From: a virus
Direction: 5' to 3' (one strand)
Length of the DNA stretch: 64,000 nt
Virus record (IMG/VR): IMGVR_UViG_3300033066_001842
Positions within the stretch are counted from its first letter, which is position 1, and the number at the start of each line of letters is the position of its first letter. Positions 13,639-39,159 of this stretch are shown here, in pieces. A program made the position numbers and the translations under genes. The notes below the pieces were generated by a model. The model did no database searches, had not been told where the DNA came from, and saw only the letters and a program-made list of their open reading frames with translations.

Positions 13639-13652
13639 ATAAAAAAATCGGA

Positions 13653-13930: not shown

Positions 13931-13933
13931 GAA

Positions 13934-14472: not shown

Positions 14473-14512
14473 TGACTTTGATTCTATTATAACATATCAA
14501 AGTCTTTTTTAT

Positions 14513-14586
14513 GGAAGCGAGAGAAGGAATCGAACCTTCGATCTAACTTTCAAAGAGTTACGTTTTACCAATTAAACTATCTCGCC
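14513..14586 (-). tRNA. tRNA-Gln(UUG)
   Basis: acceptor GGCGAGA/TCTCGCT, D-arm GTTT-AATTGGTA-AAAC, perfect anticodon stem TAACT/AGTTA with loop CTTTGAA, T-arm GAAGG-TTCGATT-CCTTC, CCA encoded. Confidence 0.7.
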
Positions 14587-16520: not shown

Positions 16521-18212
16521 TTAATCTTCGTCTTCAGTTAAGGCTTTTTCCGAATTAAACGCATGAATTACACTTGTTACATTCGGATCAAATCCCGTTA
16601 CATCCAACGAATAAGGATCACTATCACTAGCAAAACCAGCAACACCATAACCAGTAGACTGCATACCAAGAGACATCAATCTCGTTTTGGGCTTATTCAT
16701 AAGTTTACGATAATTTTGCGTTAATGTCAAGGGGTGTTCCCCTGTATTGAAATCGTTATCGGTGATATGAATGAAGCAATCCACGTCTTGCTTGTTCTTG
16801 ATAGCATGTTTAATTGGTAAACCTGCATCAGTGTAACCCGTATTATATTTTTTGGCTTTTGTAATAGCCGTTGAAATATTGTCGGTTTTGGTCAATGGCA
16901 AGTCATTCAGAACACTAGAGAAACATTTGACATCACACCATGGTTCTCTTTTTACAATGGTAAGGGCGATTGTGGCGGCGGCTTCACAGAAAGACATTAA
17001 ACCGTTCGCCATCATGCTAGACATTGAGCGCGAAACGTCAACAGAAACCATAAAGTTTTTGCCAGTAGCGGGGGCAACATCGAAAGAGTTGTTGAAAGCT
17101 TCTTCCAAAGCTTCTTGAATTTTGGGAACAGGTTTCCAGGTTAATGAACCTTTCAAACCTTGTCCTTTTCCATAAGTGCGCAGAGCAAACAAAAGTTTAA
17201 GAGGGTGAATTCCAGCTTTTGTCAATTGCTCAATATTGGTAAGGCGACGTACAACCGTTTTGACATCCTCATTAGTTCCTGAAAGTAAACCACTCGCAGT
17301 TAATGAAGAAAGTTGGCGAACGGTTGCCATGTATGGCATTTTCGCAAGTAGGGCTTGTTGAACTTGAGGCACATTTTTAAACCATGTGGGAATCATTTCA
17401 TGGGTCATATCGGTAGCCCCAATCAATTCCACAAGACGTTTAATTTGTGCGTCAGATTTTTCATTTTCTTTCCATGATTGGATTTCAATGAAAGCTTCAA
17501 TCTGGCGTCCCCCCTTTGTCAAAATTTTAGGATCAATATCGGCTAAAGCTTTTAAAACTCCAGCTTCATTTCCATTAACCACATAATTAATGAAAGAGTT
17601 TGTAATTGATCCTTGAAACTCAGGGTGGGAAAGGCGAAGTAAGTCCTGGTGCGACCAACCATCACGTTGACGATACTTCAATAATTGATAAACCAGTGAG
17701 TCAAATGACTTATCGGTGTACCAGTCACCTACATAACGTTTCAACATGCGGCCCCATCCACGCATTCCCGTAACAATTTCCGCAAAGTGAAATAAATCAG
17801 TACCAGTATTGGCAACATGTTTTAGTTCATTGAGGAACATATCACGAACAGTACGACTAGGATGCGATGCGCCTAGAGCCAAAGTATATAACATTGGTTC
17901 TTTTGTAAGAGCACGACGTTGGCTTGAAATTTCTCGAATCTTTTGAACAACTTCTTTGGGGAAATTTTGAATCATCGCTCGGATGTTCGCCGTATTTTGG
18001 GCCAAGAGTTGTTGCGATCCTACAGCAAAGGTATGATTTTCCACACCCAAGATAAGGAATTTTTCGAGAAACTGTTCAGGAGTAAGTTTCAGTGAGTATC
18101 CGCCCCCAAAATTAGGAACAGAGAACTTTGCATTTTTCCCCGTAACAGGTTTTGTTACAGGATTGCTTTTTGCAGTTTTGTTTTTCTTTTGAGAGTAAGT
18201 AGAAATGGGCAT
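16521..18212 (-). CDS. Ro60/Rsr-like protein (TROVE domain plus C-terminal vWA)
   Basis: 563 aa; ~370-aa N-terminal helical-repeat region followed by a vWA fold with MIDAS VSVDVSRSMS (DxSxS); size and domain order match Ro60 orthologues. Confidence 0.55.
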   Translation of the reverse strand: MPISTYSQKKNKTAKSNPVTKPVTGKNAKFSVPNFGGGYSLKLTPEQFLEKFLILGVENHTFAVGSQQLLAQNTANIRAMIQNFPKEVVQKIREISSQRRALTKEPMLYTLALGASHPSRTVRDMFLNELKHVANTGTDLFHFAEIVTGMRGWGRMLKRYVGDWYTDKSFDSLVYQLLKYRQRDGWSHQDLLRLSHPEFQGSITNSFINYVVNGNEAGVLKALADIDPKILTKGGRQIEAFIEIQSWKENEKSDAQIKRLVELIGATDMTHEMIPTWFKNVPQVQQALLAKMPYMATVRQLSSLTASGLLSGTNEDVKTVVRRLTNIEQLTKAGIHPLKLLFALRTYGKGQGLKGSLTWKPVPKIQEALEEAFNNSFDVAPATGKNFMVSVDVSRSMSSMMANGLMSFCEAAATIALTIVKREPWCDVKCFSSVLNDLPLTKTDNISTAITKAKKYNTGYTDAGLPIKHAIKNKQDVDCFIHITDNDFNTGEHPLTLTQNYRKLMNKPKTRLMSLGMQSTGYGVAGFASDSDPYSLDVTGFDPNVTSVIHAFNSEKALTEDED

Positions 18213-20626: not shown

Positions 20627-21436
20627 TCATAATTTAAATGCTTGGGTATAGACACTAGCTATACCTCGGTGAACTGCGCCACCGAATCTAGTATATCTAG
20701 ACGTTTCTGCATATTTTCCCGCTGTTTCTTCCAAAATTTGTAACAACCTAAATCTTTCAGGACACAATAAAAATGTTTCCGCCGTTGTATAGTGCAATGG
20801 TTTGATTTCAATTAATCGTTCCATTCCTTCTGGGGTTTGATCCTTAGAACACGCTTTGAAAAAGGGACACTCTCTATTGTAGGCGTGGCAAGCGAATGGT
20901 TTGTGACGTGGCCATACAGGTTTATCAATTATTGATCGCTGCATAGCTAAAACATCCTCTATATACTCGATAGCATTGGTTTCATTTTCTTTTGGCACTC
21001 GTAGTAATACAGACTTAGTAGCTCCACTTGCTCTAGACACTCCTCTATATTCAAAACCATGGGATTTCTCAACCATGGAATATAAACGCCATTGCCAACT
21101 ATCTATTTTTTCTTGTTTCCATTTTGTATCAAAAGTTGCGGAGTCTTTTGTCTTCCAATCGACAATCAGAGTTTTACCAATAAAGTCTTCTGGATAATAA
21201 TCCCCTGTATCTATTACAGTAGCCTTAAGGTCCATTGTTCCCTCAAAAACACCTGTAACATTAGTATAATTGATTAATTGTTCTAATGCAAGTACTTTCA
21301 AACACTGTAAATCCCGCCCCAGATATGTTTTTTCCAACACCCCTACCGCTTCAATTATTTCATCAATTTCTTCTGTTGAAATACTCTCTGGTGTATTTTT
21401 AATCTCCTCTAAAGTTTTATTATTTTCGTAAAACAT
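20627..21436 (-). CDS. PD-(D/E)XK nuclease, Cas4/RecB-like exonuclease
   Basis: IDTGDYYPE...LIVDWKTK (D...E/D-x-K) plus C-terminal Cys cluster CHAYNRECPFFKAC typical of Cas4/AddB iron-sulfur nucleases. Confidence 0.5.
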   Translation of the reverse strand: MFYENNKTLEEIKNTPESISTEEIDEIIEAVGVLEKTYLGRDLQCLKVLALEQLINYTNVTGVFEGTMDLKATVIDTGDYYPEDFIGKTLIVDWKTKDSATFDTKWKQEKIDSWQWRLYSMVEKSHGFEYRGVSRASGATKSVLLRVPKENETNAIEYIEDVLAMQRSIIDKPVWPRHKPFACHAYNRECPFFKACSKDQTPEGMERLIEIKPLHYTTAETFLLCPERFRLLQILEETAGKYAETSRYTRFGGAVHRGIASVYTQAFKL

Positions 21437-26206: not shown

Positions 26207-26573
26207 TATCCTCTTTCAATTTATTTTCAACTTTTTTCTGTTTCAGGCGTTCTCTCAACTTTTCTAAAGTATCCTCAACGCTCTGTTTACTCGTATTGGT
26301 ATTTTTCTGGGCTTCCAAATTTGTTAAATTCCCGCCCAAAATATTATCAATGTTTTGTTCAACTTGAATCTTCTGTTCATACAGAAGCGCCAAATCCATG
26401 ATTCGCCCACTTTTTTCCATCAATTGTATCCAACACTCAACCAAATGATTGAAATCAGTTGGAATCATAGAAACCGCCCCATTTACGAAAATAAATTCAT
26501 ATCCCGCATCTGTGGATCGAATTTCTCTCATATGATGAGTTTCAAAAATCTGTTTCCCAATCTTAAGAAACAT
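26193..26573 (-). CDS. hypothetical protein
   Basis: 126-aa ORF. Confidence 0.4.
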   Translation of the reverse strand: MFLKIGKQIFETHHMREIRSTDAGYEFIFVNGAVSMIPTDFNHLVECWIQLMEKSGRIMDLALLYEQKIQVEQNIDNILGGNLTNLEAQKNTNTSKQSVEDTLEKLRERLKQKKVENKLKEDIDNE

Positions 26574-27621
26574 TTTCTGTTTCCTCTTTCTTTTTCACAG
26601 GAATAACAATATTATGCAACTCCTTGAAATCATCAATTGCATTCTTAACCAACGTCTCCACAAGATCATTGGCCCTCTGTGGAAAATCCACCCCTTTAAT
26701 TGTACCTCTAAAATAATTGCCAAACAAGGTGCAAACCCTACTTGCATCATCGCTGAGCTTGTTCGAATTCTCCCACTTCGTAATATCATTCCACAAATCA
26801 GTAGGAGATTTCACAAAAGTAGGCGTATGACTGGGCGAACCTGGAACCCGTGGATCGCCGCCAACTCTCGTATCCCCCAATTTCCCCTGTGAATTCCCCA
26901 ATTCTTTGGGATCACCGCTTCCCTCAGAACTCTTATTCTTTTTAACACTGATTTTCCCAGTGTCAGGATCAGTTGCCTTAGTCGCAACATCATCCCTCAA
27001 ATTTTCAGGAACTTTCAAAAGCGCCATTGCATCCGTATAGCTCAACAATCCGGTATGCAACTTATTTTGCAACCCTGCATCCAACTTCATCAAGCTCAAA
27101 TACTGCGAAACAGTACCCTGACTCTTGAAACAAAAGAATTCCGCAATTTCCTGTTGCGTCATCTTAAAATGCTCACTCATAACCTTCATAGACTTTGACA
27201 TATCCATGGGGCTAAAAGTGCGAAAATGATTTTCTCCCAACTGTTTCAGAAAATGGGCCTTCTCATCTTCTTCCCCATTTTCCAAAACATACTTAATCTT
27301 TGTCTTGGGTTTCCCCTCATTTTCCTCAATCTCATTCAAAATCAACAACGCAGTATGGCGACAATACCCAATATCGACAACCAACTGCTTACTCTTATTA
27401 ATCTTACAAACAATTGGCTGCGCTTGTCCATGATCCCGAATATTAAACGCCAGATCATTCAATTGTGCTTGCGTCGGAACCCCAAATCGGCCCTTATTAT
27501 TGCCCCAATCGGCAACAATATTTTCCGCAAACTCTTCCAAAAACCCCGTCTTAGCTTTAGACATTTCTTTTTTCCTTTTCTTTAATAATTTATCTCCAAA
27601 TATGAAGGGGACACCGAACAC
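26563..27621 (-). CDS. ParB-like nuclease-domain protein
   Basis: N-terminal QAQPIVCKINKSKQLVVDIGYCRHTALL resembles the ParB/Srx GxxRxxA core; C-terminal K/E-rich. Confidence 0.45.
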   Translation of the reverse strand: MFGVPFIFGDKLLKKRKKEMSKAKTGFLEEFAENIVADWGNNKGRFGVPTQAQLNDLAFNIRDHGQAQPIVCKINKSKQLVVDIGYCRHTALLILNEIEENEGKPKTKIKYVLENGEEDEKAHFLKQLGENHFRTFSPMDMSKSMKVMSEHFKMTQQEIAEFFCFKSQGTVSQYLSLMKLDAGLQNKLHTGLLSYTDAMALLKVPENLRDDVATKATDPDTGKISVKKNKSSEGSGDPKELGNSQGKLGDTRVGGDPRVPGSPSHTPTFVKSPTDLWNDITKWENSNKLSDDASRVCTLFGNYFRGTIKGVDFPQRANDLVETLVKNAIDDFKELHNIVIPVKKKEETENVS

Positions 27622-28923: not shown

Positions 28924-29559
28924 TGTATTTTCCTCCTAATTCTCTAAGATATTTAGGCTGCTAAGCACAGTATCAAAAATTTTTCAAGCGTCTCTCCAGC
29001 CGGGCTTTCACCGCTGTCCCTACTCTGTATATTAAATTTCTGAACCTTTAGGGGCCACCATGCTTAGCCCTAAATCTCCTAAAGAAGTGGGGAGACATAA
29101 AAAATGCAAAAACTAGAATTGACTATGAGTCCAATTTCCTCGTCCCACATTTACAACACTCCAACCCTTGCCCGTCCAAAGTTTGTGTCGGTGTGTCTGT
29201 CTCCCACTCTCAAAGGATATCAATTTCTGATAAGGAACGCAACACCTTTTATATAGTACTTTACTCCCAATTCACACTAGTACTACCTTCCTAGTACCTT
29301 TTCAACAATTCCAAATCCAAATTTTCAAAATCCCCTTTGTTCAAAAAAATTGTACGCCGTTATATGTGCGTGGCCGTAAATTAAACCAAATTTTAAAAAA
29401 AAAACGGGATATTAATTATAATATATAAATTCTAAAATATCAATAATTGATATTATCAATAACCGATTATCGATAGCCAACAACCGATACCCAATTAGCG
29501 ATTGAAATATAGGGATTTTTCGCCATGGAAAAAACTTTCAAAAACTTTCATTTTTTCTC

Positions 29560-30768
29560 TTGCAATTTTTCGGAGCCAACTTTAAACTTGTTTATGTAGG
29601 GTGGATGATGATTGACAAACGATCAACGCCCCCTAACATCAAACCTCAAGAAAAAGGACACAAGAAAATGGCTTCGAATATGCTCGATATGGTAATCAAC
29701 AATGCTGTGGCAGGTGCCACTTCTAACATTTGGTGGGCCAATGGCAAAAAAGGCGGTGTTGACGGAACCTCAAAAATCGTCGCACCAACTTCTATTAGAG
29801 GGGATGAATCGGTGGATGAACTGATCCAGCTTCTCAACCTGGATTGGGATCCAATCGCAGAACGGCTAGTGAATCCCTCGACCAAACAAAAGAGCGATGC
29901 ATGGGAGATCTATCGTCCTGATAACGGGGATGTTCTCGCAACAGTTATTTCTTCCAAGAAAGTGGGGATTCCCCCATCTCCGCGTGAGATCCTGGAATTC
30001 ATCTCCTCGATCCGAGAGCAAGTCAATGCCCAATGGGCAACTGGCGGACTCACAACAACAGCCCGTCTGTGGGCAAACATCCGCTTGCCACAAGCAATGG
30101 TGGATATGGGCGGCGGCGACGTGATCCACAACACGTTGATGATGATGTATGACTACAAGGCGCGTAAAGGACGCCTCAAGTTGTGCGCAACCAATGTTGT
30201 GTGTGACAACACTCTCCAGTATGCGCTTGACGAGAAATCCAAGGTTGACGTTGATTGGTCCGACCGCGATGACATCGCCACGGGGAAGCTTCTCAAAGCG
30301 CTCAAGCTTGCCGATGACCGCTTCAACTCCGTCATTAACAAGTTTGGTGTTCTCCAATCGCGTCACGCCGATCTGCGCAACGCGCCCGAGATCATCACCT
30401 ACGCTCATATCCTCGACACACCAGCAGTACTTGCCCGTGTTTTGGATGCACAACAACGTGACGGCGGAGAAGCCTATGATATCGTGCATGACCTTCTCAA
30501 GTCTTATTCCATGCAACGGGCAACGGACTTGACCAGCTTGGGGAAAACCATCATCACCAATATGGTTGCTGGAGTGGGGCAAGAAATGGAAGCACGCAAA
30601 GATAACTGGTATGGGGCCTTGCAGGGCGTTACCTACGCTGTGGATCATGCCATGGGACGTGACGCAGATTCCCGCATTGACTCAGGGTATTTTGGTGCCC
30701 GTTCCGATCTCAAGAGCAATGCCCTCGAAGTTGCGTTGATCGTGTCGGATGTGGCAAAATCAATCTAG
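29560..30768 (+). CDS. hypothetical protein in the GC-rich island (possibly DUF932-type phage/plasmid protein; start likely at Met 29646)
   Basis: 402-aa ORF on the plus strand inside a minus-strand block; local GC about 50% versus about 38% elsewhere; NIWWANGKKGG near the N-terminus; not RtcB-like. Confidence 0.4.
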   Translation: MQFFGANFKLVYVGWMMIDKRSTPPNIKPQEKGHKKMASNMLDMVINNAVAGATSNIWWANGKKGGVDGTSKIVAPTSIRGDESVDELIQLLNLDWDPIAERLVNPSTKQKSDAWEIYRPDNGDVLATVISSKKVGIPPSPREILEFISSIREQVNAQWATGGLTTTARLWANIRLPQAMVDMGGGDVIHNTLMMMYDYKARKGRLKLCATNVVCDNTLQYALDEKSKVDVDWSDRDDIATGKLLKALKLADDRFNSVINKFGVLQSRHADLRNAPEIITYAHILDTPAVLARVLDAQQRDGGEAYDIVHDLLKSYSMQRATDLTSLGKTIITNMVAGVGQEMEARKDNWYGALQGVTYAVDHAMGRDADSRIDSGYFGARSDLKSNALEVALIVSDVAKSI

Positions 30769-30851
30769 CGCCTAAGGGCTAAACCTGCACTCAATTTCGG
30801 GGGAAGCTAAAAAATTCCCCCAAATTTCAATCAAAAAAACGGAGAATTTTC

Positions 30852-31226
30852 ATGGAAACCCCTTACAGTTTGAGAATTGAGCACGGAGCTGGAATGATTA
30901 TCTACACTCTAATTGATCGTGGAGTGTTGCGCGCAACAATGGCCGTTTGTGAAGCTGACGAGAATCTCGGAATGCTCACAACAAATAATCCGGTGAATTA
31001 TTTCTCGGATGCCCCACAATTGCCAGAGCATACGGCGCAAGCGGTTTGTCCTCGCCAATGGGGATATCATCCGAATTATCCACACGTTACGGGCGTTCTC
31101 AAAGCAGCATTGATTACGCACCTGGAAGAGCTTGCAATCAAGGCTACATGTACGATTCAGAGCAGTGTGGTAAAGAGGATCTTACCTACTTCAAACGAGT
31201 CAACACTGAGGCCAATTGGCAACTGA
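30852..31226 (+). CDS. hypothetical protein (island)
   Basis: 124 aa. Confidence 0.35.
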   Translation: METPYSLRIEHGAGMIIYTLIDRGVLRATMAVCEADENLGMLTTNNPVNYFSDAPQLPEHTAQAVCPRQWGYHPNYPHVTGVLKAALITHLEELAIKATCTIQSSVVKRILPTSNESTLRPIGN

Positions 31227-31245
31227 AGGAAGTGGAGTTTTCCTA

Positions 31246-31518
31246 ATGTACTTTAGACGCATAACGAAAACAGCGGCTCGGAAACGGTTCGAGCAAGGGC
31301 TTAATTTCCACATCATTGCACACAAGATGCGGCCCGGATTCCCATTCCAAATGGGAATGGACGTATTCCCCCAATTCATCGCCAACAGAGCTATTGTATC
31401 GGGAGAGTCTAACCAACAAACCTTCGATGCAATGGTGAACCAATTCACGTATTACAATTGCAGCCATGAAACGGGATACTATCCCGCATTCTACATTGTG
31501 GAAAAAGGGGAAAAATGA
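31246..31518 (+). CDS. hypothetical protein (island)
   Basis: ORF 31216..31518 trimmed to Met MYFRRITK. Confidence 0.3.
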   Translation: MYFRRITKTAARKRFEQGLNFHIIAHKMRPGFPFQMGMDVFPQFIANRAIVSGESNQQTFDAMVNQFTYYNCSHETGYYPAFYIVEKGEK

Positions 31519-31647
31519 AATGGTTTGATTGGGCGATCATTCTTTTTATTTGGGTCTTTACAATTCCCGCACAATGCGGGTTTGCGAGGATCTTACACAA
31601 ATGGCTGAAAGGGGAGTTGAAAATATTCCCATGGGAGTGGTAGGAAA

Positions 31648-31851
31648 ATGAAAAACAAACAAAAGATTGAAACGCTTTTTAGGGACAGGTTTCCTGATGT
31701 CCGTATCTTGGGAATGTATCCACTCAAAGCCTATTCTACAGATAGACATCCTGCATGGTGTATCACGGGTGGGGACGGGAATGTTTATCTGTGCGATGAG
31801 GTGAGTATTGAGTGCTATACCAAGGGATTGGTAATCTGGATTTCAACCTAA
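31648..31851 (+). CDS. hypothetical protein (island)
   Basis: 67 aa. Confidence 0.3.
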   Translation: MKNKQKIETLFRDRFPDVRILGMYPLKAYSTDRHPAWCITGGDGNVYLCDEVSIECYTKGLVIWIST

Positions 31852-32044
31852 CCAAAAACATGGTCAAAACATAGGGGCAACATCTAGGAAAGGAAAAATA
31901 TGATTTACATGATAACGGCATTCAGTGCGATTTCGTATCCCGCTACGAGAATGGGATAAAACTCACATAAGGCTAAAAACATAGGGCGCAGCCCCCTCAA
32001 TCAATCGGAAGCAATTCCCTGTAAACCAAGAACATATCTATTAA

Positions 32045-32068
32045 TAGGCCCTTAATTGGGCCTTTTTT
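32045..32068 (+). terminator. rho-independent terminator closing the island operon
   Basis: AGGCCC-TTAATT-GGGCCT followed by TTTTTTATT. Confidence 0.5.
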
Positions 32069-32124
32069 ATTGCCCAAATCCAAAGTGTATATTATCGATA
32101 ATGCTACAGTGGCAATTATATATA

Positions 32125-32400
32125 ATCCCCTAAAGTACTAAAGTACTAAAGTGCTACCTAAGTAACTAATTCTCTTGACTTTATGTAAGTGTATGATAAT
32201 ACAGTACTTACCCCACTGATGCATACTCTGGGCTGTTTGTCAAGTACAAAATGATCTTAGTACTTTAGTACTGATTCAATCGTAGTACATTAGTACTGTG
32301 TCACCTTAGTACTTTAGTACTGTGTCGTACCAGTACTTTAGTACTAGTACTTTTTACTTAGTACGGGGGTACCAGTACCCTTAGTACTTTAGTACTAGAG
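32125..32400. repeat. iteron array built on AGTACT(TTAGTACT) units
   Basis: TTAGTACTTTAGTACT occurs 4 times direct (32267, 32305, 32331, 32378), once inverted as AGTACTAAAGTACTAAAG (32130-32150), plus degenerate copies such as GTAGTACATTAGTACT. Confidence 0.7.
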
Positions 32401-32511
32401 CCCCCCGCCCTCCCCTGTGACCTTGGTCACAGTATGTATATATTTCTACAAAAATTTTAGAATTTAGAACGTTTCGTGTTTCGCTGTACTTCGCTTCGCT
32501 ACGTACAAAAT

Positions 32512-32769
32512 TCACCCCAACCTTGACCCAACATCTTTTGTCCTAAACCTATAAGTCCCACCAATCCCCTTTGGTCCCTCCAATTGCACCGCCGTATAAA
32601 AATACTTATAACTAACAATTCCTTTTGAATTATAATTCAAACTCTTATATACTACAGGGGGGAACCATTTATTCCATCTTTGCAATCCAAAAATTGCAGC
32701 CCCAATTAACGAAAACCAATTTCTTCTACTAAATTTTTTCATTGTACTAATTTCCCGCTGCCTTCCCAT
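32512..32769 (-). CDS. hypothetical protein
   Basis: 85 aa. Confidence 0.3.
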   Translation of the reverse strand: MGRQREISTMKKFSRRNWFSLIGAAIFGLQRWNKWFPPVVYKSLNYNSKGIVSYKYFYTAVQLEGPKGIGGTYRFRTKDVGSRLG

Positions 32770-32978
32770 TCCAACGCTTGTGGTTTAGGAATCCCCGTAT
32801 GTTCCTGTATTGCAACCCCATTAACAAAGTGGGCGCAAAAAAAGTGTGCCTGTTGTCCCAAATATGTCAACTGTCTACCGTCTTCAAAAGCTACAATAAC
32901 CATTTTTACTGGACTATTATCCCCTTTGATTTCCCCATCCTCATTTACAAAATGCGGCGGCATTTTATTTTCTGGCAT
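32739..32978 (-). CDS. hypothetical protein
   Basis: 79 aa. Confidence 0.3.
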   Translation of the reverse strand: MPENKMPPHFVNEDGEIKGDNSPVKMVIVAFEDGRQLTYLGQQAHFFCAHFVNGVAIQEHTGIPKPQALEWEGSGKLVQ

Positions 32979-32979
32979 T

Positions 32980-33417
32980 TTATTTTATTCCAAATTCCTT
33001 TTTTAACCAATTATTAATTTCATTTAACAATTGCATTTCTTCTTTTTTGCCCCCCAAATCTGGGTGATATTTTTTGCTCAACTGTTTAAAACCTGTGGCA
33101 ATTAATTCTCCAACCATTACTTTTTTATTTTCTTCCGTATAAATATAAAGATTTTCAAATTTTGGGGGTTTTTGGTTTTCTTTTGTTCCGTGGGCTCCCG
33201 TTGGTCGCCCTTTTTTAGCATCACCTTTACCAGATCCCCCAAAAAGCATATCTGGAGTAACCACAATAAAGTGTTCTTCCTCCAGAACCTCGATAATCCT
33301 TCCCAACAGTGGGGGGTTGATATCAAGATTTGATAATGCCCAAAGCAAGTAGTCAACCTCGATTTCATCTAACCAGTGTCCCTTCCATTTTCCAAATGGC
33401 ATTTTATGTCTTGACAT
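32980..33417 (-). CDS. DnaJ (J-domain) protein
   Basis: C-terminal KKYHPDLGGKKEEMQLLNEINNWL carries the HPD tripeptide in J-domain context. Confidence 0.5.
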   Translation of the reverse strand: MSRHKMPFGKWKGHWLDEIEVDYLLWALSNLDINPPLLGRIIEVLEEEHFIVVTPDMLFGGSGKGDAKKGRPTGAHGTKENQKPPKFENLYIYTEENKKVMVGELIATGFKQLSKKYHPDLGGKKEEMQLLNEINNWLKKEFGIK

Positions 33418-34417: not shown

Positions 34418-34492
34418 GGCTAGTTAGCTGAGATGGATTAGCTTTGGTCTGAAAAACCAAGCAGCTTGGATCGTTACCAAGACTAGCCACCA
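34418..34492 (+). tRNA. tRNA-Phe(GAA)
   Basis: perfect acceptor GGCTAGT/ACTAGCC, anticodon stem TTGGT/ACCAA loop CTGAAAA, T-arm CTTGG-ATCGTTA-CCAAG, CCA encoded. Confidence 0.7.
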
Positions 34493-34497
34493 GTTTT

Positions 34498-34574
34498 TGC
34501 ACAGATAGTTTAATTGGTAAAACAATGGATTCCAAACCCATTAGATGAGAGTTCAAATCTTTCTCTGTGTGCCA
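34498..34574 (+). tRNA. tRNA-Trp(CCA)
   Basis: acceptor GCACAGA/TCTGTGT, anticodon loop TTCCAAA closed by AATGG/CCATT with an A·C at 31-39, T-arm GAGAG-TTCAAAT-CTTTC, CCA encoded. Confidence 0.55.
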
Positions 34575-34712
34575 ATCTTACCAGAATTATACCCGTTTAT
34601 TTCTTAGCCGAAACAATAGTCTAGCTACCTATTGCGGGGTTCCGATTATTGCATTTTAGGACGCACAAGGAACATGCATTACTCTAGTGCTATAATTCTG
34701 GTATAGTCTTTT

Positions 34713-34787
34713 GTTCCGAGTTAGCTCAAAGGTAGAGCAAGCGACTGATAATCGTTAGACCATAGTTCGATTCTATGACTCGGAACC
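34713..34787 (+). tRNA. tRNA-Ile(GAU)
   Basis: perfect acceptor GTTCCGA/TCGGAAC, D-arm GCTC-AAAGGTA-GAGC, anticodon loop CTGATAA, T-arm CATAG-TTCGATT-CTATG; CCA not encoded. Confidence 0.65.
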
Positions 34788-34988
34788 ATTTTTATGCCTG
34801 AAACAAAAAAACAAATACAAGATAGACTTAAAACTGTAATGCCAATTGGTGACACAGATTTCACAGACATGTCTGAAACATCTTTTGTCATGTGGTTTAA
34901 TGGTCACTGCTTCCTGTGGAAATTTGATAAAGATTCCCAAAAATGGGATTGTATTGACGAACTCTAGTTTATATGTTATGCTAAATGT

Positions 34989-35064
34989 GGGTCTGTAACT
35001 CAATTGGCAGAGTAATTGGCTTTTAACCAAGAGGTTGGGGGTTCAATTCCCTCCAGACCCACCA
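34989..35064 (+). tRNA. tRNA-Lys(UUU)
   Basis: perfect acceptor GGGTCTG/CAGACCC, D-arm ACTC-AATTGGCA-GAGT, anticodon loop CTTTTAA, CCA encoded. Confidence 0.7.
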
Positions 35065-35073
35065 AATTTTTAT

Positions 35074-35148
35074 GGTCCTTTCGTCTAACGGATAAGGCAT
35101 TGCGCTACGAACGCAAAAATATAGGTTCGATTCCTATAGGGACTTCCA
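35074..35148 (+). tRNA. tRNA-Arg(ACG)
   Basis: acceptor GGTCCTT/AGGGACT (2 G·U), perfect anticodon stem TTGCG/CGCAA loop CTACGAA, T-arm ATAGG-TTCGATT-CCTAT, CCA encoded. Confidence 0.7.
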
Positions 35149-35157
35149 CAATTTTAC

Positions 35158-35248
35158 GGAAAGGTGACAGAGTGGTAATGTGCGATTCTGCTAAAATCAG
35201 GCTAACCTCTAAAGGGTTACGAAGGTTCGATCCCTTCCTTTTCCGCCA
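35158..35248 (+). tRNA. tRNA-Ser(GCU)
   Basis: 91 nt with long variable arm; acceptor GGAAAGG/CTTTTCC, anticodon loop CTGCTAA, T-arm GAAGG-TTCGATC-CCTTC, CCA encoded. Confidence 0.6.
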
Positions 35249-35434
35249 AAACTTTTAAAGGACATTTTTATGGCACGTATTTCTAAAGAACCTTGTGAAT
35301 TTTGCAAGGGTGAAAATTGTGTAGAAGTTTCTCAACCTAATGATTGGGATTCCGATTACAAAATCCATTGCCTAAAATGTGATAAAGTTTATTGGGTAGA
35401 CGGTGAAGACGGTTAATCTGCTATCCTAATTTTA

Positions 35435-35529
35435 TGGGAGTGATGCAAGGTTGGTAGACTTGCGCTGGTCTGTAAAACCAGTCTTTCTTAGAAAGTTAAC
35501 ACATTGGTTCAAATCCATTCACTCCCACC
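35435..35529 (+). tRNA. tRNA-Tyr(GUA)
   Basis: 95 nt with long variable arm; perfect acceptor GGGAGTG/CACTCCC, perfect anticodon stem CTGGT/ACCAG loop CTGTAAA, T-loop TTCAAAT, CCA encoded. Confidence 0.7.
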
Positions 35530-35551
35530 ATTTCTTTTTTAAGGACACCCC

Positions 35552-35929
35552 ATGCTAAGACGTTTTTTCCTAACCCTTCTACCTGCCTCGCTTTTGGCGA
35601 AACCATCCCCCAAAATTTCTACTTTTGAAAAACAATGTAGAATAATTGCATCCGAAAAATTAAAATTTCTTCGGGAAAATGTAACTCAACCGTTAGCTAT
35701 TAACGAACATAGATGGTTTACAAATTCTAAATACATTATATGTTATGAAATGTTTTTAGATGGAACAATCTGTTTACCCAATCCGGCAGGTTTAAAAGGC
35801 ACACAAATAGTTTGTTACGAATGTCCTAGTGATGAATCTAGAAAAAATTTTATCAACCTCTTAATCCTCACCAAGGGTCAATATAATACAGGGCGGTATT
35901 GCATCTTCGAAACTTCCGAATTTCTCTAA
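35552..35929 (+). CDS. secreted hypothetical protein inside the tRNA cluster
   Basis: signal-like MLRRFFLTLLPASLLAKPS; 125 aa, 5 Cys. Confidence 0.4.
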   Translation: MLRRFFLTLLPASLLAKPSPKISTFEKQCRIIASEKLKFLRENVTQPLAINEHRWFTNSKYIICYEMFLDGTICLPNPAGLKGTQIVCYECPSDESRKNFINLLILTKGQYNTGRYCIFETSEFL

Positions 35930-36171
35930 AAATGACACAATTAGAACAAATTATAGAATGGCAAGAACGTCTTGATAAGATACATCTTGCCCTATATCCT
36001 GTTTCTAAAGTGACGCCTATACCTGCCTTTAAAAATATAAACGATATCAAAGCTCTCCCCATATGGAAAATTAAAAAACTATATGGGGAAATTTTCTGTG
36101 CTTACTGTGAATCTGATAAAATCCTCAAACGAGACTCCTGCTCCAACTGTGGGGCTCCATACAACCATTGA
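35899..36171 (+). CDS. zinc-ribbon small protein
   Basis: CAYCESD...CSNCG. Confidence 0.3.
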   Translation: MHLRNFRISLKMTQLEQIIEWQERLDKIHLALYPVSKVTPIPAFKNINDIKALPIWKIKKLYGEIFCAYCESDKILKRDSCSNCGAPYNH

Positions 36172-36209
36172 CTACCTTATCAATAAATGATATAATCTTT
36201 ATATGGAAG

Positions 36210-36301
36210 GTGGGCTGCAATGGTGCGGAAACTGTCTTGAAAACAGTCCTATGTAGCGATCACTGCATAAGGGTTCGATTCCTTCACCTTCCTCCATTTT
36301 A
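36210..36301 (+). tRNA. tRNA-Ser(UGA)
   Basis: 92 nt with long variable arm; perfect acceptor GGAAGGT/ACCTTCC, perfect anticodon stem ACTGT/ACAGT loop CTTGAAA, CCA encoded. Confidence 0.65.
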
Positions 36302-36452
36302 TTTATGAAATATGATAAGGTCCATACTATAAATTGGAAAGTTATTGAAAAACAAATTGGAAAACCAAAAACAATTGACGACTATAGAAGGACTTATAAA
36401 ATAATTAACGGTAAATTAGTAGAGACTACTCCCGATTTACCCCACAAAACTT

Positions 36453-36530
36453 TGGCCTCCTAGCTCCAATCGGTAGAGGCAACGGACTTAAAATCCGTAC
36501 AGTCTGGGTTCGAATCCCAGGGGGGCTACC
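36453..36530 (+). tRNA. tRNA with Leu anticodon UAA but short (5-nt) variable region
   Basis: acceptor GGCCTCC/GGGGGCT (2 G·U), perfect anticodon stem ACGGA/TCCGT loop CTTAAAA, T-arm CTGGG-TTCGAAT-CCCAG, discriminator A73, CCA encoded. Confidence 0.5.
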
Positions 36531-36554
36531 ATTTTTGTTGTAAACTAAATATAT

Positions 36555-36630
36555 GGCGCGTTGATGTAATTGGCAACCATACCAGTCTTAGAAACTGTTT
36601 TTATAGGTTCGAATCCTATACGCGCCACCA
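36555..36630 (+). tRNA. tRNA with Leu anticodon UAG but short (5-nt) variable region
   Basis: perfect acceptor GGCGCGT/ACGCGCC, anticodon loop CTTAGAA (4 bp plus one mismatch in the stem), T-arm ATAGG-TTCGAAT-CCTAT, A73, CCA encoded. Confidence 0.5.
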
Positions 36631-36772: not shown

Positions 36773-37639
36773 ATGCAATTCCATTATGCCGTCTATTTCT
36801 ATGTCGGCTTTTCTGGACATTCCCCACACAGCAGCTTTAAACATTCTGCTGGTGAAATCCACATTAACTTAGACAAACCCCGTATTGAAAAAGAATTAGA
36901 ACGCAACAATATGGGTATCCTCATAATGGCACGCCTAACCTCCTCTGACGCCATTATGGAAACCATCGGCCTCCTAAACGCCCTAGAACATACATTTCCC
37001 TCTGAAAGAGTGGATCTCTTCATCCCCTATTATCCCTATTCCCGCGCTGACCGCGTAATCGGAAATGGTGGCGGGGATTCTTTTGGCGTAGAAATCATTA
37101 CCAACCTTTTTTCCGATGAAATTTGTCCTAACATTGGAAAAATTATCACCCTGGACACCCATTCTGCCGTTTCTCATTCCGTAGTAGATTCAGATATCCT
37201 CTGTCACTACGAATTATTCCAAGAATCAGGAATTAATATCCCCGTCCACGCCAACATTATTACCGTAGCTCCCGACAAAGGCGCTTCCAATCGTGCTTCC
37301 GTCTTTGCATCCTGTCTCAAAACAGGTTTAATCACTGCTTCCAAAGAACGCGATCTTGGTGGCCACATCTCCTATTACAAAGTTCCAGAAAACCTCCCCT
37401 CCAACGCCTACTACATCGTAATCGATGATATCTGTGATGGGGGCGCAACCTTCAATCTATTAGCAAAAAGTTTGCCCCAAAATGCTAAAAAAATTCTAAT
37501 CGTAACACACGGCATTTTTTCCCAAGGTGTAAATGCTATTCATGGTTATGATTATATTGTTACAACAAATTCAATTCATGATTTTCCAGCAACTTCAAAA
37601 AACTTTATTGTAAAGGATCTTACGAAATGTCTTGTGTAA
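36773..37639 (+). CDS. prs: ribose-phosphate pyrophosphokinase (PRPP synthetase)
   Basis: FIPYYPYSRADR (cf. Prs PYFGYARQDR) and PRPP-binding YIVIDDICDGGATF (cf. VDDIIDTGGT). Confidence 0.65.
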   Translation: MQFHYAVYFYVGFSGHSPHSSFKHSAGEIHINLDKPRIEKELERNNMGILIMARLTSSDAIMETIGLLNALEHTFPSERVDLFIPYYPYSRADRVIGNGGGDSFGVEIITNLFSDEICPNIGKIITLDTHSAVSHSVVDSDILCHYELFQESGINIPVHANIITVAPDKGASNRASVFASCLKTGLITASKERDLGGHISYYKVPENLPSNAYYIVIDDICDGGATFNLLAKSLPQNAKKILIVTHGIFSQGVNAIHGYDYIVTTNSIHDFPATSKNFIVKDLTKCLV

Positions 37640-39078
37640 ACCCTCTCCTCCATACTGATGTTTACAAGATGGGCCACATGGAGCAATATGCCCCTGGAAC
37701 TACCCGTATATATTCCAACATCGTAACCCGTTCCGCAAGAAAATATCCCGCCGTCCTAAATTTCGGAACACAATACTATCTTTCCGAATATCTTTCCAAA
37801 CCAATTACCAAAGCCCATGTGGACGAATTTCTCGACCTAAACAATCGTATCCTTTCCTCCACATCCAACGAAGTTTACACCAAATTACGCGCCCTTGAAA
37901 AATTAGGCTTCGTTCCCCTAATCATCAAAGCTTTACCAGAAGGTAACGTTTACCCAATTGGGACACCCCTTCTCACAGCTACAAACCATCCTGACTATCC
38001 AGAATTCGCGTGGACTGTCGGATTTTACGAAAGCTTACTTCTAAAAATCTGGAACACTTGTACCGTAGCCACTTTTTCGCGCAAACTAAAACAACTGTGC
38101 TACCTTTACGCCGACCTAACCTGTGATTCCAATCTCCATGTGGATTACCAAGTTCACGACTTCGGCTATCGTGGCTGCTCATCTGAAGAAACTGCCGCAA
38201 TCTCCGGTATGTCTCACCTAGTAAATTTTCTAGGCACAGATACCGTTCTCGCCGTAAAATACGCCAAAGACTACTATTACGCAACGGACCCAATCGGTCT
38301 ATCTGTCCCTGCATCCGAACATTCTGTAATGTGTTCTTTTGGCCCAACCAACGAAATCGATGCATTCCGCCACATGCTTAAAACATATCCTACTGGAATT
38401 GTTTCAATCGTGTGTGACACCTACAACATTTGGAAAGTTCTTTCAGAATTCGTACCCCTTCTGAAAGACGAAATTCTTGCGCGTAACGGAAAAGTAGTAT
38501 TTCGCCCCGACTCAGGCGACCAAGAAAAAATCCTTTGTGGAAACCCTGACGCTTCCGACCCTCTAGAAAAGAAAGGTGTCTTCCAACTCCTCTTCGAACA
38601 ATTTGGTGAATTTCCAAACAAAAAAGGATATCGCACCCTCCACCCAAAAGTGGGTGTTGTCTATGGTGACGGATTCTACTACGATAAATTCCACACGGTT
38701 TTCAACCGGATGAAAACTGACAAAATCTCCTCAGCCGAACTAACAGTAGGGGTTGGCGGAATTTTGCTCCAACAACACAACCGCGATGATATGGGTTTTT
38801 CCATGAAAGCCACCTATATCGAACAAAACGGTAACGGCGTAAACATCTTTAAAGACCCAATTACCGATCCTGGCAAAAAATCCCTCAAAGGACTGCTCTC
38901 CGTAACCCAAGAACCCTACCATGGGGGCTATACTTGGAAAACCAACCAAGAAATCACATGGGAACAAGAGAAAAGAGGGGCTTTACAGGTGGTCTTTAAT
39001 CGTGGTAAACTATTAAATCAGACTACTTTTGATGAAATTCGCAAAAGGGCCGATTCCTCAATCGTTAAAAGATATTAA
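37627..39078 (+). CDS. nadV: nicotinamide phosphoribosyltransferase (NadV/NAMPT-like)
   Basis: 483 aa, the size expected for NadV; HDFGYRG motif of the NAPRTase/NAMPT family; sits immediately downstream of prs, whose product PRPP is its co-substrate. Confidence 0.6.
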   Translation: MSCVNPLLHTDVYKMGHMEQYAPGTTRIYSNIVTRSARKYPAVLNFGTQYYLSEYLSKPITKAHVDEFLDLNNRILSSTSNEVYTKLRALEKLGFVPLIIKALPEGNVYPIGTPLLTATNHPDYPEFAWTVGFYESLLLKIWNTCTVATFSRKLKQLCYLYADLTCDSNLHVDYQVHDFGYRGCSSEETAAISGMSHLVNFLGTDTVLAVKYAKDYYYATDPIGLSVPASEHSVMCSFGPTNEIDAFRHMLKTYPTGIVSIVCDTYNIWKVLSEFVPLLKDEILARNGKVVFRPDSGDQEKILCGNPDASDPLEKKGVFQLLFEQFGEFPNKKGYRTLHPKVGVVYGDGFYYDKFHTVFNRMKTDKISSAELTVGVGGILLQQHNRDDMGFSMKATYIEQNGNGVNIFKDPITDPGKKSLKGLLSVTQEPYHGGYTWKTNQEITWEQEKRGALQVVFNRGKLLNQTTFDEIRKRADSSIVKRY

Positions 39079-39083
39079 TTTTT

Positions 39084-39159
39084 GCTTGGGAGGCTGAAGA
39101 GTGGAGGCACCGCCCTTACAAGACGGCTAAAGTGGGTTCAACTCCCACCCCAAGTACCA
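39084..39159 (+). tRNA. tRNA-Val(UAC)
   Basis: acceptor GCTTGGG/CCCAAGT (G·U at 1-72), anticodon loop CTTACAA (stem has one C·A), T-arm GTGGG-TTCAACT-CCCAC, CCA encoded. Confidence 0.55.

What the first reader, a model, noticed from the sequence alone, without database searches (positions are those of the whole stretch)
29230..32460. GC-rich plus-strand island bracketed by AGTACT-based repeats
Genes 29560..31851 are on the opposite strand to the whole surrounding ~26-kb block. They have visibly higher GC (about 50% versus about 38%) and end in a strong terminator (32045..32068). Upstream (29230-29290: TAGTACTTTA, CTAGTACTACC, CTAGTACCTT) and downstream (32125-32400) the same AGTACT-containing motifs recur. 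The encoded proteins (402 aa, 124 aa, 91 aa, 67 aa) have no motifs I can identify. The largest has a faint resemblance to DUF932-type phage/plasmid proteins. The region looks like a horizontally acquired cassette (a moron, possibly anti-defence or defence), or alternatively the replication origin region with its own initiator.
Basis: seen in the sequence. Interest (0 to 1): 0.65.

Follow-up and report, generated by a model that had tools for sequence, protein, structure and literature searches.

The report
DUF932 operon flanked by palindrome arrays
A self-contained, unusually GC-rich gene unit in a roughly 72-kb tailed phage, built around a protein of unknown function (DUF932) and bracketed by arrays of short palindromic protein-binding boxes, is an old conserved part of this phage lineage and not a recently imported cassette; which protein the boxes recruit is still open.

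Summary
A plus-strand unit (29668-31851) interrupts a 31-kb minus-strand block. Its GC is 0.45-0.54 against 0.29-0.40 in the flanks. It ends in an intrinsic terminator (32046-32069). AGTACT boxes lie on both sides: 13 of the window's 31 copies fall in 263 bp.

The largest protein is a genuine DUF932 member, and its true start is 29668.

Five relatives with 26-45% identical DUF932 carry the same layout, and those whose contigs reach the flanks have the same flanking genes. They show the same GC3 excess and positionally homologous box arrays.

Boxes are often paired as AGTAC-N4-GTACT. That fits the published cyanobacterial LexA-box formula, but the host is unknown and other details argue against LexA.

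One relative carries a perfect canonical parS inside the homologous array. A ParB-like gene is conserved nearby.

The operon avoids the codons read by the phage's own tRNAs.

Best reading, at moderate confidence: an ancient operon, probably expressed very early, insulated or regulated by centromere- or operator-like arrays that a phage protein binds. ParB-like is the best candidate binder.

DUF932 has no solved structural relative, so its function remains unknown.

The parts
28924..29667 (.). Upstream non-coding control region, 744 bp, lying between the leftward early genes and the DUF932 operon.
   Evidence: No credible ORF. Blocks are conserved with relative L023, for example TCCCACTCTCA..ATATCAA..TGATA and AACGGGATATTAATTATAA.
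29253..29300 (.). Three TAGTAC-type boxes: TAGTACTT, CTAGTACTAC and CTAGTACC.
   Evidence: The equivalent boxes occur upstream of DUF932 in L023 (8183-8202, 8570-8583) and L037 (417-452).
29415..29443 (-). Sigma-70-like promoter TTGATA-17-TATAAT (11 of 12 matches) pointing left. It overlaps the conserved block AACGGGATATTAATTATAA (29403-29421).
   Evidence: The block is identical in L023. Function is inferred.
29459..29507 (.). Degenerate heptad run (ATAACCG ATTATCG ATAGCCA ...) containing TTATCGATA. It is the weak counterpart of the strong TTATCGATAA/ATAATCR arrays of the relatives.
   Evidence: The arrays are in L001 240-500, L023 8251-8518, L022 2775-2893 and L026 1545-1610. The heptad is not enriched in the window as a whole.
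29668..30768 (+). DUF932 (PF06067 / TIGR03299-type) protein, 366 aa.
   Evidence: Pfam E 2.2e-10, and phrog_1221. There are 815 relatives at E<=1e-3. Conserved residues are VVCxNT (C179, N181), R83, Q104, D151 and D326-H327. The AF2 model has pLDDT 89.
30852..31226 (+). ORF of 124 aa with no known family. Lineage-specific cargo.
   Evidence: The identical protein occurs in a second sample, and a 79% relative exists. No homologue in L001, L022, L023 or L026. No Pfam, PHROG or PADLOC hit.
31246..31518 (+). ORF of 90 aa with no known family.
   Evidence: Called as a gene in L038.
31515..31643 (+). ORF of 42 aa, hydrophobic. A possible small membrane peptide.
   Evidence: Not called in L038. Status uncertain.
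31648..31851 (+). ORF of 67 aa with no known family.
32046..32069 (+). Intrinsic terminator of the DUF932 operon.
32091..32102 (.). ATTATCGATAAT box, at the same relative position as ACCGATAATCGAT in the relatives.
32130..32400 (.). Array of 13 AGTACT hexamers. Seven sites fit the AGTAC-N4-GTACT dyad. A left arm (32130-32157) is inverted relative to the right arm (32254-32400). Two inverted (A)GTAC-TTGAC(A/T) composites face each other at 32175 and 32243. A G/C hairpin, GGGGGTACC..CCC, lies at 32365-32380.
   Evidence: The array is positionally homologous to those of L001, L022, L023 and L026, and box columns are more conserved than spacers (0.82 against 0.70).
32414..32431 (.). Conserved hairpin CTGTGACC-TT-GGTCACAG, followed by TATGTATATA and AAACGTTT. 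It closes the array.
26563..27621 (-). ParB-like protein with a GxxRxxA patch and a ParB HTH domain. Candidate binder of the boxes.
   Evidence: PF17762 E 1.7e-10, and phrog_1033 E 1.6e-15. It is 40% identical to the syntenic gene of L023. Binding is inferred and untested.
32739..33417 (-). Syntenic marker genes to the right of the array: a 79-aa protein, and a 145-aa protein that is QSregVF_b plus J-domain-like.
   Evidence: Homologues lie at the same side and strand in L022 and L026.

Best explanation
The island is an ancient, vertically inherited, autonomous transcription unit of this podophage lineage. It has its own control region, a DUF932 gene, a slot that holds lineage-specific small ORFs, and an intrinsic terminator. 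It is read against the surrounding early genes.

Two long non-coding regions bracket it. They are packed with dyad-symmetric protein-binding boxes. The core is TAGTACTA, often paired as AGTAC-N4-GTACT. TTATCGATAA-type heptads occur as well.

Proposed mechanism: the operon is translated with the host's tRNA set straight after DNA entry. Its codon usage avoids the codons served by the phage's own tRNAs. The box arrays are high-density sites for a phage-encoded dimeric DNA-binding protein. The best candidate is the conserved ParB-like protein encoded 1.6 kb to the left. That protein would build a centromere-like or KorB-like nucleoprotein complex on both sides of the operon, insulating it from the convergent and divergent neighbouring transcription and timing or silencing it. 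DUF932 would then be an establishment protein, as its position in other mobile elements suggests (from memory).

Shown here: the anatomy, the conservation, the enrichment statistics and the codon bias.

Inferred: the identity of the binder, the timing of expression, and the role of DUF932.
For: 1. Same layout in relatives. L001, L022, L023, L026 and L037 have DUF932 only 26-45% identical, yet wherever the contig extends far enough they show the order GC-rich DUF932, variable small ORFs, terminator, AGTACT array, with boxes upstream as well.

2. Vertical descent. Flanking genes have diverged in step with DUF932.

3. Selection on the boxes. The arrays can be aligned between phages whose proteins are only about 30-45% identical. 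Box columns are more conserved than spacer columns.

4. Protein-binding geometry. AGTACT is enriched 3-fold in the window, and all of the excess lies in 263 bp. The 14-bp dyad occurs at 7 sites there, against 0.5 expected for the whole window. Dyad symmetry with an 8-bp pitch fits a dimeric DNA-binding protein.

5. ParB link. A ParB-like gene is conserved 1.6-3 kb to the left in W, L023 and L038. A perfect canonical parS, TGTTCCACGTGGAACA, lies inside the homologous array of L022; its chance expectation is about 2e-6. A ParB-family gene also lies five genes upstream of DUF932 in the cultured Edwardsiella phage vB_EpM_ZHS.

6. Codon usage. GC3 is 0.57, against 0.33 +/- 0.06 in other genes. TTA plus CTA make up 41% of Leu codons in the genome but 3% in DUF932, although the phage encodes tRNA-Leu(TAA) and tRNA-Leu(TAG). 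The same GC3 excess is seen in L001, L022 and L023.

7. Lineage-specific boxes elsewhere. More distant DUF932 operons carry arrays of different palindromes: TAGTCGCGACTA in L027, and CCATGCATGG in L039 directly after the operon terminator. That pattern is expected for a co-evolving phage protein and its site.
Against: There is no direct evidence that ParB-like, or any named protein, binds the boxes.

The boxes do not resemble canonical parS. The canonical parS occurs in one relative only.

No ParA was found.

No ParB-like gene was seen in the sampled parts of L019, L027 or L039.

Unrelated phages (L009, L010) carry the same AGTACT dyads with no shared protein detected. That fits a host factor better.

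Several DUF932 loci have no arrays within reach.

Early expression is inferred from codon usage alone. A conserved strong promoter in front of DUF932 was not found.

The downstream array sits between convergent operon ends. Any regulation from there would have to act at a distance or as a roadblock.
Confidence: 0.4

Rival explanations
1. Host LexA-box array. The AGTAC-N4-GTACT dyads are binding sites for a host LexA of the cyanobacterial or Gram-positive type. The locus would either sense the SOS state or titrate LexA as a sponge.
For: The published cyanobacterial LexA box is RGTACNNNDGTWCB, with consensus AGTACWNWTGTACT (PMC3091678). Seven sites in 32134-32396 fit the IUPAC form exactly, against 0.5 expected for the whole window. 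The same dyad arrays occur in unrelated phages (L009, L010, L019) that share no detectable protein apart from DUF932 in L019. A host factor would explain that.
Against: The host is unknown. The nearest cultured relatives by TerL and portal infect alphaproteobacteria, Vibrio and similar hosts, at only 22-25% identity, so they give no firm host assignment. Relative L023 encodes a Ros/MucR protein, a family I associate with alphaproteobacteria; the LexA boxes of that group are quoted as GTTC-N7-GTTC in PMC3091678.

Listed host sites almost always have T at position 9, while every site here has A.

Many boxes in the relatives are single TAGTACTA hexamers or AGTACTATTGACA composites, which are not LexA dyads.

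Distant DUF932 loci use quite different palindromes.

The same 13-mer pairs also occur in Methylophilaceae, Lachnospiraceae and other genomes.

LexA regulons use one or two boxes in a promoter, not 7-13 between convergent genes.
Confidence: 0.12
2. Replication origin. The box arrays are iteron-like initiator sites flanking an initiator gene (DUF932 or a neighbour), and the 29%-GC stretch at 29250-29550 is the unwinding element.
For: Repeated boxes lie on both sides of a gene, as in P4 ori/crr (from memory). An AT-rich region with a block conserved between W and L023 lies upstream. The box sequence co-varies with lineage. The locus lies about 1-4 kb left of the point (about 33.44 kb) where the leftward and rightward gene blocks diverge.
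Confidence: 0.13
3. Recently acquired foreign cassette (moron).
For: GC and codon usage differ from the rest of the genome. The unit is on the opposite strand with its own terminator. The small ORFs downstream of DUF932 differ between lineages. DUF932 genes in other elements also tend to be GC-richer than their surroundings.
Against: The module is syntenic in five relatives, and the flanking genes have diverged equally. The GC3 excess is conserved across lineages with background GC of 0.32-0.40. No integrase, transposase or target duplication was found.
Confidence: 0.05
4. Packaging signal or genome terminus. The arrays would be terminase recognition sites, as the hexamer arrays of P1 pac are (from memory).
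For: In L009 and L010 the same dyad arrays lie directly upstream of the small and large terminase genes. Inverted arms flank a central spacer of about 100 bp.
Against: In the window TerL lies 13 kb away, at 45161-47017. The island is 7-10 kb inside the 48.8-kb assembly of the same phage. That contig starts at window position 22389 and is collinear with the window over the 18.8 kb compared, so it should run past the window's right end. A 71.7-kb contig also carries the 124-aa ORF. The arrays of L010 and L019 are internal to their contigs.
Confidence: 0.05
5. The downstream array encodes a small non-coding RNA of about 235 nt. It would run from the TTGACT promoter-like site at 32175 to the hairpin at 32414-32431 and carry repeated AGUACU motifs that sequester an RNA-binding protein.
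For: L023 and L026 have a full TTGACA-16/17-TATAGT promoter at the homologous place. A conserved hairpin ends the array. The predicted fold is more stable than shuffles, z = -4.4.
Against: The promoter match is poor in W, L001, L022 and L019. The fold score is expected for any palindrome array. No Rfam family passes threshold. The boxes occur in both orientations and also upstream of the operon.
Confidence: 0.05

Closest known systems
DUF932 / TIGR03299 'phage/plasmid-like protein' family (PF06067)
   Same: The 366-aa protein passes the Pfam threshold. It shares the family's invariant residues (VVCxNT, DH, R, Q, W). It aligns end to end with about 120 members.
   Different: It belongs to a deep sub-clade: only 3 relatives at E<=1e-30 among 1.8 billion representatives. 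The N-terminus differs, and the common SHDGS motif is replaced. The family has no known function, and no solved structure resembles the model.
ParB-parS centromeres and KorB-type operator sets. Examples from memory: the parS-L/parS-R repeat arrays flanking parAB in mycobacteriophage RedRock, and the KorB OB palindromes of RK2.
   Same: Clusters of short symmetric boxes lie in non-coding DNA on both sides of an operon. A ParB-like protein (GxxRxxA patch plus ParB HTH domain) is encoded nearby and conserved. A canonical parS lies inside the homologous array of one relative.
   Different: The boxes are not parS-like. No ParA was found. The operon that the arrays flank is DUF932, not parAB. The phage appears lytic, with no integrase or plasmid genes in 64 kb. 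Binding is untested.
Cyanobacterial / Gram-positive-type LexA boxes (RGTACNNNDGTWCB; CGAAC-N4-GTTCG)
   Same: The 14-bp geometry is identical, and the sites fit the IUPAC formula exactly.
   Different: There are arrays of 7-13 sites instead of 1-2. They lie between convergent genes and not in a promoter. Position 9 is always A. Single hexamers are common. The host is unknown.
Iteron-type phage/plasmid origins with a separate cis site (P4 ori/crr, from memory)
   Same: Two clusters of the same short repeat lie about 3 kb apart around a gene, with an adjacent AT-rich stretch.
   Different: The boxes are dyads, not direct iterons. There is no skew inflection. There is no recognisable initiator.
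First-expressed establishment genes of mobile elements: plasmid leading regions and the early left end of T7 (from memory)
   Same: DUF932 genes are typical of ICE, plasmid and prophage islands and often lie near ParB-like genes. Here the operon is codon-tuned to work without the phage's tRNAs.
   Different: No timing data exist. The operon is mid-genome and not at a DNA end. There is no match to known anti-defence or defence models.

Membership tests
DUF932 (PF06067) | Score above the Pfam gathering threshold. | tested here: met
   41.1 bits against a cut-off of 23, E 2.2e-10, covering residues 141-366 of the 402-aa ORF. Also phrog_1221, E 1.2e-12.
DUF932 (PF06067) | The family's conserved residues and full-length collinearity. 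| tested here: met
   C179 and N181 are invariant. T182, R83, Q104, W135, D151, D326 and H327 are at least 90% conserved in 125 sequences.
DUF932 (PF06067) | A known biochemical activity. | not testable with these tools
   None is described in the searchable literature. There is no PDB fold relative.
ParB-parS partition/centromere system | A ParB protein with an N-terminal GxxRxxA (ParB/Srx) patch and an HTH domain. | tested here: met
   HTH_ParB E 1.7e-10. GYCRHTA aligns with GFCRIEA and GERRLTA.
ParB-parS partition/centromere system | 16-bp parS-type palindromes bound by that ParB. | tested here: inconclusive
   No parS-like site in the window (at least 3 mismatches). A perfect parS lies in the homologous array of relative L022. 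Whether ParB-like binds the AGTACT boxes cannot be tested here.
ParB-parS partition/centromere system | A partner ParA ATPase. | tested here: not met
   The Pfam sweep of 74 further window ORFs, together with the individually scanned ORFs, found no ParA/CbiA-type ATPase. About 8 kb of the genome lies outside the window.
LexA (SOS) regulon operator | A sequence fitting the host LexA box. | tested here: inconclusive
   Seven exact fits to the cyanobacterial formula. The host and its LexA motif are unknown.
LexA (SOS) regulon operator | One or two boxes overlapping a promoter of the regulated gene. | tested here: not met
   The main array lies downstream of the operon terminator, between convergent genes.
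Iteron-type replication origin | A GC-skew turning point or other origin signature at the site. | tested here: not met
   Cumulative skew is monotonic over 64 kb.
Iteron-type replication origin | A recognisable initiator next to the repeats. | tested here: not met
   No Rep, DnaA, helicase-loader or primase domain is found in the island. The AAA_25 helicase lies at 3090-4010.
Genomic island / moron | Composition that deviates from the host genome. | tested here: met
Genomic island / moron | Patchy presence: absent from, or differently placed in, related genomes. | tested here: not met
   The module is present in all five relatives found, and in the same place wherever the contig reaches the flanks.
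Intrinsic terminator | A G+C-rich stem-loop followed by a T run. | tested here: met
   32046-32063 plus TTTTTT, -12.1 kcal/mol.

The most novel reading that the evidence does not exclude
DUF932 operons together with lineage-specific palindrome arrays (AGTACT here, TAGTCGCGACTA in L027, CCATGCATGG in L039) form a previously undescribed cis/trans module of phages. In it, either DUF932 itself or an obligate partner reads the array. The module could be a new kind of origin or centromere. Alternatively, the array could titrate a global host regulator such as LexA while an immediate-early establishment protein is made. Either outcome would give a first function to a family that is widespread in phages, plasmids and ICEs.
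Probability: 0.15. Interest if true: 0.7.

Novelty: new variant of a known kind. Interest (0 to 1): 0.45.

Why it matters
DUF932 is one of the commonest uncharacterised protein families of phages, plasmids and integrative elements. No structure or activity is known for it.

This lineage offers an unusually clean handle on the family. The gene sits in a small insulated operon. Its non-coding flanks are under visible selection, with alignable box arrays between phages whose proteins are only 30-45% identical. Its synonymous codon usage has been kept apart from the rest of the genome over deep time, and it specifically avoids the codons that the phage's own tRNAs read.

That combination yields testable predictions:
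- Expression before the phage tRNAs accumulate.
- A defined binding motif, AGTAC-N4-GTACT.
- A candidate binder, the ParB-like protein.

It also cautions against reading every GC-rich, opposite-strand block as recent horizontal transfer.

Tried and rejected
- DNA-level matches. The 8-kb region has no match in the phage or plasmid collections.
- Close-relative searches in IMG/VR. Searches with DUF932, the neighbouring 325-aa protein, a DUF932 clade alignment and a ParB alignment found nothing. The genome collection also gave no DUF932 relative.
- "Arrays lie at contig ends, so they mark genome termini". This looked attractive for L009, L010 and L019. It turned out to be an artefact of how loci are stored: L010 and L019 are internal to their contigs. 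The same phage is assembled with the island well inside the contig.
- Promoter reading of the AGTACTA-TTGACA composites. Only L023 and L026 have a proper -10 element.
- A phiEco32-type TATGTATA promoter motif. It is not repeated elsewhere in the window.
- Rfam. There is only a sub-threshold miRNA artefact caused by the palindromes.
- PADLOC. No defence models hit any of the island or flanking proteins scanned, 29668-31848 and six neighbours.
- Host inference. The closest cultured relatives by TerL and portal are only 22-25% identical and point to mixed hosts.
- Pairs of the dyad in bacterial genomes. The hits are heterogeneous tandem repeats in unrelated taxa and give no host clue.
- Literature. 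Searches for DUF932, YfjQ, YafZ and TIGR03299 gave no functional study. The only lead is a preprint noting selection on a DUF932 gene after phage exposure.

Full report
CONTEXT

The window is part of a large, previously unsampled tailed phage.
- It carries 20-23 tRNA genes.
- It encodes a DNA polymerase, a Sak4-like protein, a T7/ICP2-type large terminase (45161-47017), a portal, and SU10/GP4-type adaptor and fibre proteins.
- It has no nucleotide match in the phage or plasmid collections.
- The same phage (99.98% identity over 18.8 kb) was assembled from a second sample as a 48.8-kb contig. A 71.7-kb contig also holds one of the island proteins.
- Genes run leftward from about 33.4 kb to 2.5 kb and rightward from 33.5 kb onward. 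The island interrupts the leftward block.

CHECKING THE OBSERVATION

- Strand: plus-strand ORFs occupy 29560/29668-31851.
- Composition: GC in 300-bp windows is 0.43-0.54 across the unit, against 0.29-0.40 in the flanks.
- Terminator: a 6-bp G+C-rich stem with a T6 tail at 32046-32069, -12.1 kcal/mol.
- Motif: AGTACT occurs 31 times, against 10.2 +/- 3.4 expected. Thirteen copies lie in 32134-32396. Two copies plus a near copy lie at 29255-29297.
- Protein: the large protein is a true DUF932 member (Pfam E 2.2e-10, above threshold).
- Start codon: alignment with homologues puts the start at ATG 29668, giving 366 aa.

IS IT A FOREIGN CASSETTE? NO.

Only one relative shares 5-residue words with the protein in a database of 5.8 billion sequences. 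An exhaustive HMMER scan found 815 family members, of which only three score at E<=1e-30. Fetching the contigs of the closest relatives, plus one metagenome scan, gave five related loci:
- L001: 44-45% identity.
- L022: 39-40%.
- L023: 28%.
- L026: 26% to the window protein over the C-terminal fragment held, and 76% to L023.
- L037: 29%.

All have the same layout as far as their contigs extend:
- a DUF932 gene at about 50% GC in a background of 30-40% GC;
- a few small plus-strand ORFs;
- a terminator;
- an AGTACT array;
- boxes upstream as well.

Where the contigs are long enough, the neighbours are the same as in the window.
- A ParB-like gene lies to the left (40% identical in L023).
- A 79-aa protein and a QSregVF_b/J-domain-like protein lie to the right, on the minus strand (37-41% and 39% identical in L022 and L026).

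The flanking genes have diverged as much as DUF932, so the module has been inherited vertically for a long time.

Only the small ORFs behind DUF932 are lineage-specific. The four ORFs at 30852-31851 have no homologues in the relatives and no family assignment. At least the 124-aa ORF is a real gene, because a 79% relative exists elsewhere.

THE COMPOSITIONAL ANOMALY IS A MAINTAINED TRAIT

- GC3 of DUF932 is 0.57 in the window. It is 0.58, 0.55 and 0.54 in L001, L022 and L023. Neighbouring genes have GC3 of 0.19-0.44.
- Against 31 other window genes (0.33 +/- 0.06, maximum 0.44), the operon lies 4 SD out.
- The shift is codon-specific. Leu TTA plus CTA fall from 41% to 3%. Ile ATC rises from 27% to 76%. 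Val GTA falls from 36% to 7%.
- The phage itself encodes tRNA-Leu(TAA) and tRNA-Leu(TAG), and mostly tRNAs that read A-ending codons.

The operon therefore avoids the codons that the phage's own tRNAs serve. The simplest reading is that it is translated when only host tRNAs are available, immediately after entry. This is inference; no expression data exist. Strand inversion cannot explain a change in G+C content.

THE BOXES

The downstream non-coding region (31852-32511, 660 bp) and the upstream one (28924-29667, 744 bp) are large for a phage.

The downstream array is built mostly of 14-bp dyads, AGTAC-N4-GTACT. That explains the 8-bp pitch of the hexamers. A left arm is inverted relative to the right arm.

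The arrays of W, L001, L022, L023 and L026 can be aligned, and several box pairs are invariant. Box columns are more conserved than spacers (0.82 against 0.70). One caveat applies: an aligner tends to stack repeats.

The conserved order is:
1. the terminator region;
2. an ATTATCGATAA-type box;
3. an inverted pair AGTACTAAAGG..CCTTAGTACT;
4. two facing AAGTACTA-TTGACA composites 50-70 bp apart;
5. further dyads;
6. in L022 and L026, a run of ATAATCR heptads;
7. a GGGGGTACC..CCCCC hairpin;
8. a last dyad;
9. a closing hairpin with TATGTATA and AAACGTTT.

This density, symmetry and conservation mark a multi-site protein-binding locus.

WHO BINDS? THREE LEADS, NONE DECISIVE

1. LexA.
- For: the dyad fits the published cyanobacterial LexA box, RGTACNNNDGTWCB (PMC3091678). 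There are seven exact fits in the array, against 0.5 expected for the whole window. Similar arrays occur in otherwise unrelated IMG/VR phages, L009 and L010 upstream of the terminase genes and L019 upstream of a DUF932 operon. A host factor would explain that.
- Against: host boxes nearly always carry T at position 9, while these always carry A. Many boxes in the relatives are single hexamers. The host is unknown, and the weak hints point elsewhere. An array between convergent genes is not how LexA operators are laid out.

2. ParB.
- For: a ParB-like protein with a GxxRxxA patch and a ParB HTH domain is conserved 1.6-3 kb away. A perfect canonical parS, TGTTCCACGTGGAACA, sits inside the homologous array of L022, with a chance expectation of about 2e-6. 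A ParB-family gene lies five genes upstream of DUF932 in the cultured Edwardsiella phage vB_EpM_ZHS.
- Against: no ParA was found, and the boxes are not parS-like.

3. Co-variation with lineage.
- For: more distant DUF932 operons have arrays of other palindromes. L027 has more than 20 TAGTCGCGACTA-type sites upstream. L039 has 11 CCATGCATGG sites directly after the operon terminator, at a convergent junction. This favours a phage-encoded binder that co-evolves with its site.
- Against: several other DUF932 loci show no arrays within the DNA available.

WHAT DUF932 IS

A 125-sequence alignment gave a confident model (pLDDT 89, pTM 0.88). It has an N-terminal beta-sheet domain and a C-terminal helical bundle.

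The invariant C179 and N181, together with the conserved D326-H327, suggest an active site, but this is speculation.

The searchable literature holds no functional study.

RIVALS

- Origin: there is no GC-skew turning point at the island, no initiator-like domain, and the boxes are dyads, not iterons. It is not excluded.
- Terminus or pac site: the island is internal to the 48.8-kb assembly of the same phage, and TerL lies 13 kb away.
- ncRNA: promoter-like sites are good in only two relatives. The favourable fold (z = -4.4) is expected for palindromes. Rfam is silent.
- Defence or anti-defence: there are no PADLOC hits. An anti-defence or establishment role for an early-expressed DUF932 remains possible but untested.

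VERDICT

The horizontal-transfer interpretation is rejected for the core of the module. The small downstream ORFs may be exchangeable cargo.

The best-supported picture is a conserved, insulated DUF932 operon that is probably expressed very early and is bracketed by centromere- or operator-like arrays of AGTAC-N4-GTACT boxes. The conserved ParB-like protein is the leading candidate binder. Confidence in the mechanism is about 0.4, and much higher for the anatomy and conservation.

It is a new variant of known kinds of element, not a demonstrably new category. Its value lies in offering a defined, testable entry point into the function of DUF932.

Noticed in passing
window 36773-39078 (+): Adjacent genes: a ribose-phosphate pyrophosphokinase-like gene (weak Pfam hits) and a NAMPT/NAPRTase-family gene (E 1.9e-41). 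The pair resembles the phage NAD+ reconstitution pathway type 1 that I recall from the literature.
   Followed up: partly
window 16521-18212 (-): A 563-aa protein matching phrog_850 'RNA-binding protein' (E 1.8e-45), possibly Ro60/TROVE-like. No partner Y-RNA-like gene was found by Rfam at the gathering threshold.
   Followed up: partly
window 110-1830, 13506-14586, 34418-36630, 39084-39156, 54901-54974: There are 20 tRNA genes by ARAGORN. Rfam adds three tRNA-like hits (809-881, 13506-13638 with a long insert, 39084-39156). Most anticodons read A-ending codons.
   Followed up: partly
L022 2609-2624: A perfect canonical chromosomal-type parS, TGTTCCACGTGGAACA, lies inside the non-coding array of a relative. 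No other locus has fewer than 3 mismatches.
   Followed up: partly
L022 about 100-200 and L023 about 9040-9140: The DUF932 5' leaders share two hairpins. The stems show compensatory changes (GAGATAG/CTATCTC against GGGTAG/CTACCC), and the loop GAGTGACAGAC is conserved. This may be a regulatory leader RNA. It is not evident in the window.
   Followed up: no
L009 150-780: An IMG/VR phage has a series of about eight long perfect palindromes. The stem sequences differ, but the apex is conserved (..TAGTACTAAAGTACTA.. or ..TAGTCAAAGACTA..). They lie directly upstream of the small terminase gene. This looks like selection for hairpin or cruciform formation.
   Followed up: partly
L027 240-1250 and 8286-9245: A distant DUF932 operon in a 67-kb marine contig is preceded by more than 20 copies of TAGTCGCGACTA or AAAATAGTCGC half-sites. 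The same locus encodes a C5 cytosine methylase.
   Followed up: partly
L039 7262-7500: Eleven CCATGCATGG palindromes lie directly after the terminator of another DUF932 operon, at a convergent junction next to an AAA_25 helicase gene.
   Followed up: partly
window 1133-1194 and 14082-14143: A 62-nt inverted repeat, 89% complementary, with arms 12.9 kb apart. Both arms lie near tRNA clusters.
   Followed up: no
window 28924-29250: The left part of the upstream non-coding region shares blocks with L023 (CCACTCTGTAT.TAT, TCCCACTCTCA). It could be a leader or a small RNA of the leftward operon.
   Followed up: no
window, individual ORFs mostly not located (Pfam sweep of 74 ORFs): The sweep hit dGTP_diPhyd_N (dATP/dGTP diphosphohydrolase), Prok-JAB, DUF1360, DUF7873 (15409-16152), UDG-like (10335-11033), PD-(D/E)XK (20627-21433), AAA_25 helicase (3090-4010) and Metallophos (4455-5279). 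No integrase, ParA or LexA/S24 was found.
   Followed up: partly
window 31515-31643; L001 1908-1988: A very short hydrophobic ORF follows the DUF932 gene in L001, overlapping its stop codon. In the window a similar 42-aa ORF is the third ORF behind DUF932. It may be a conserved small membrane peptide. Homology was not tested.
   Followed up: no
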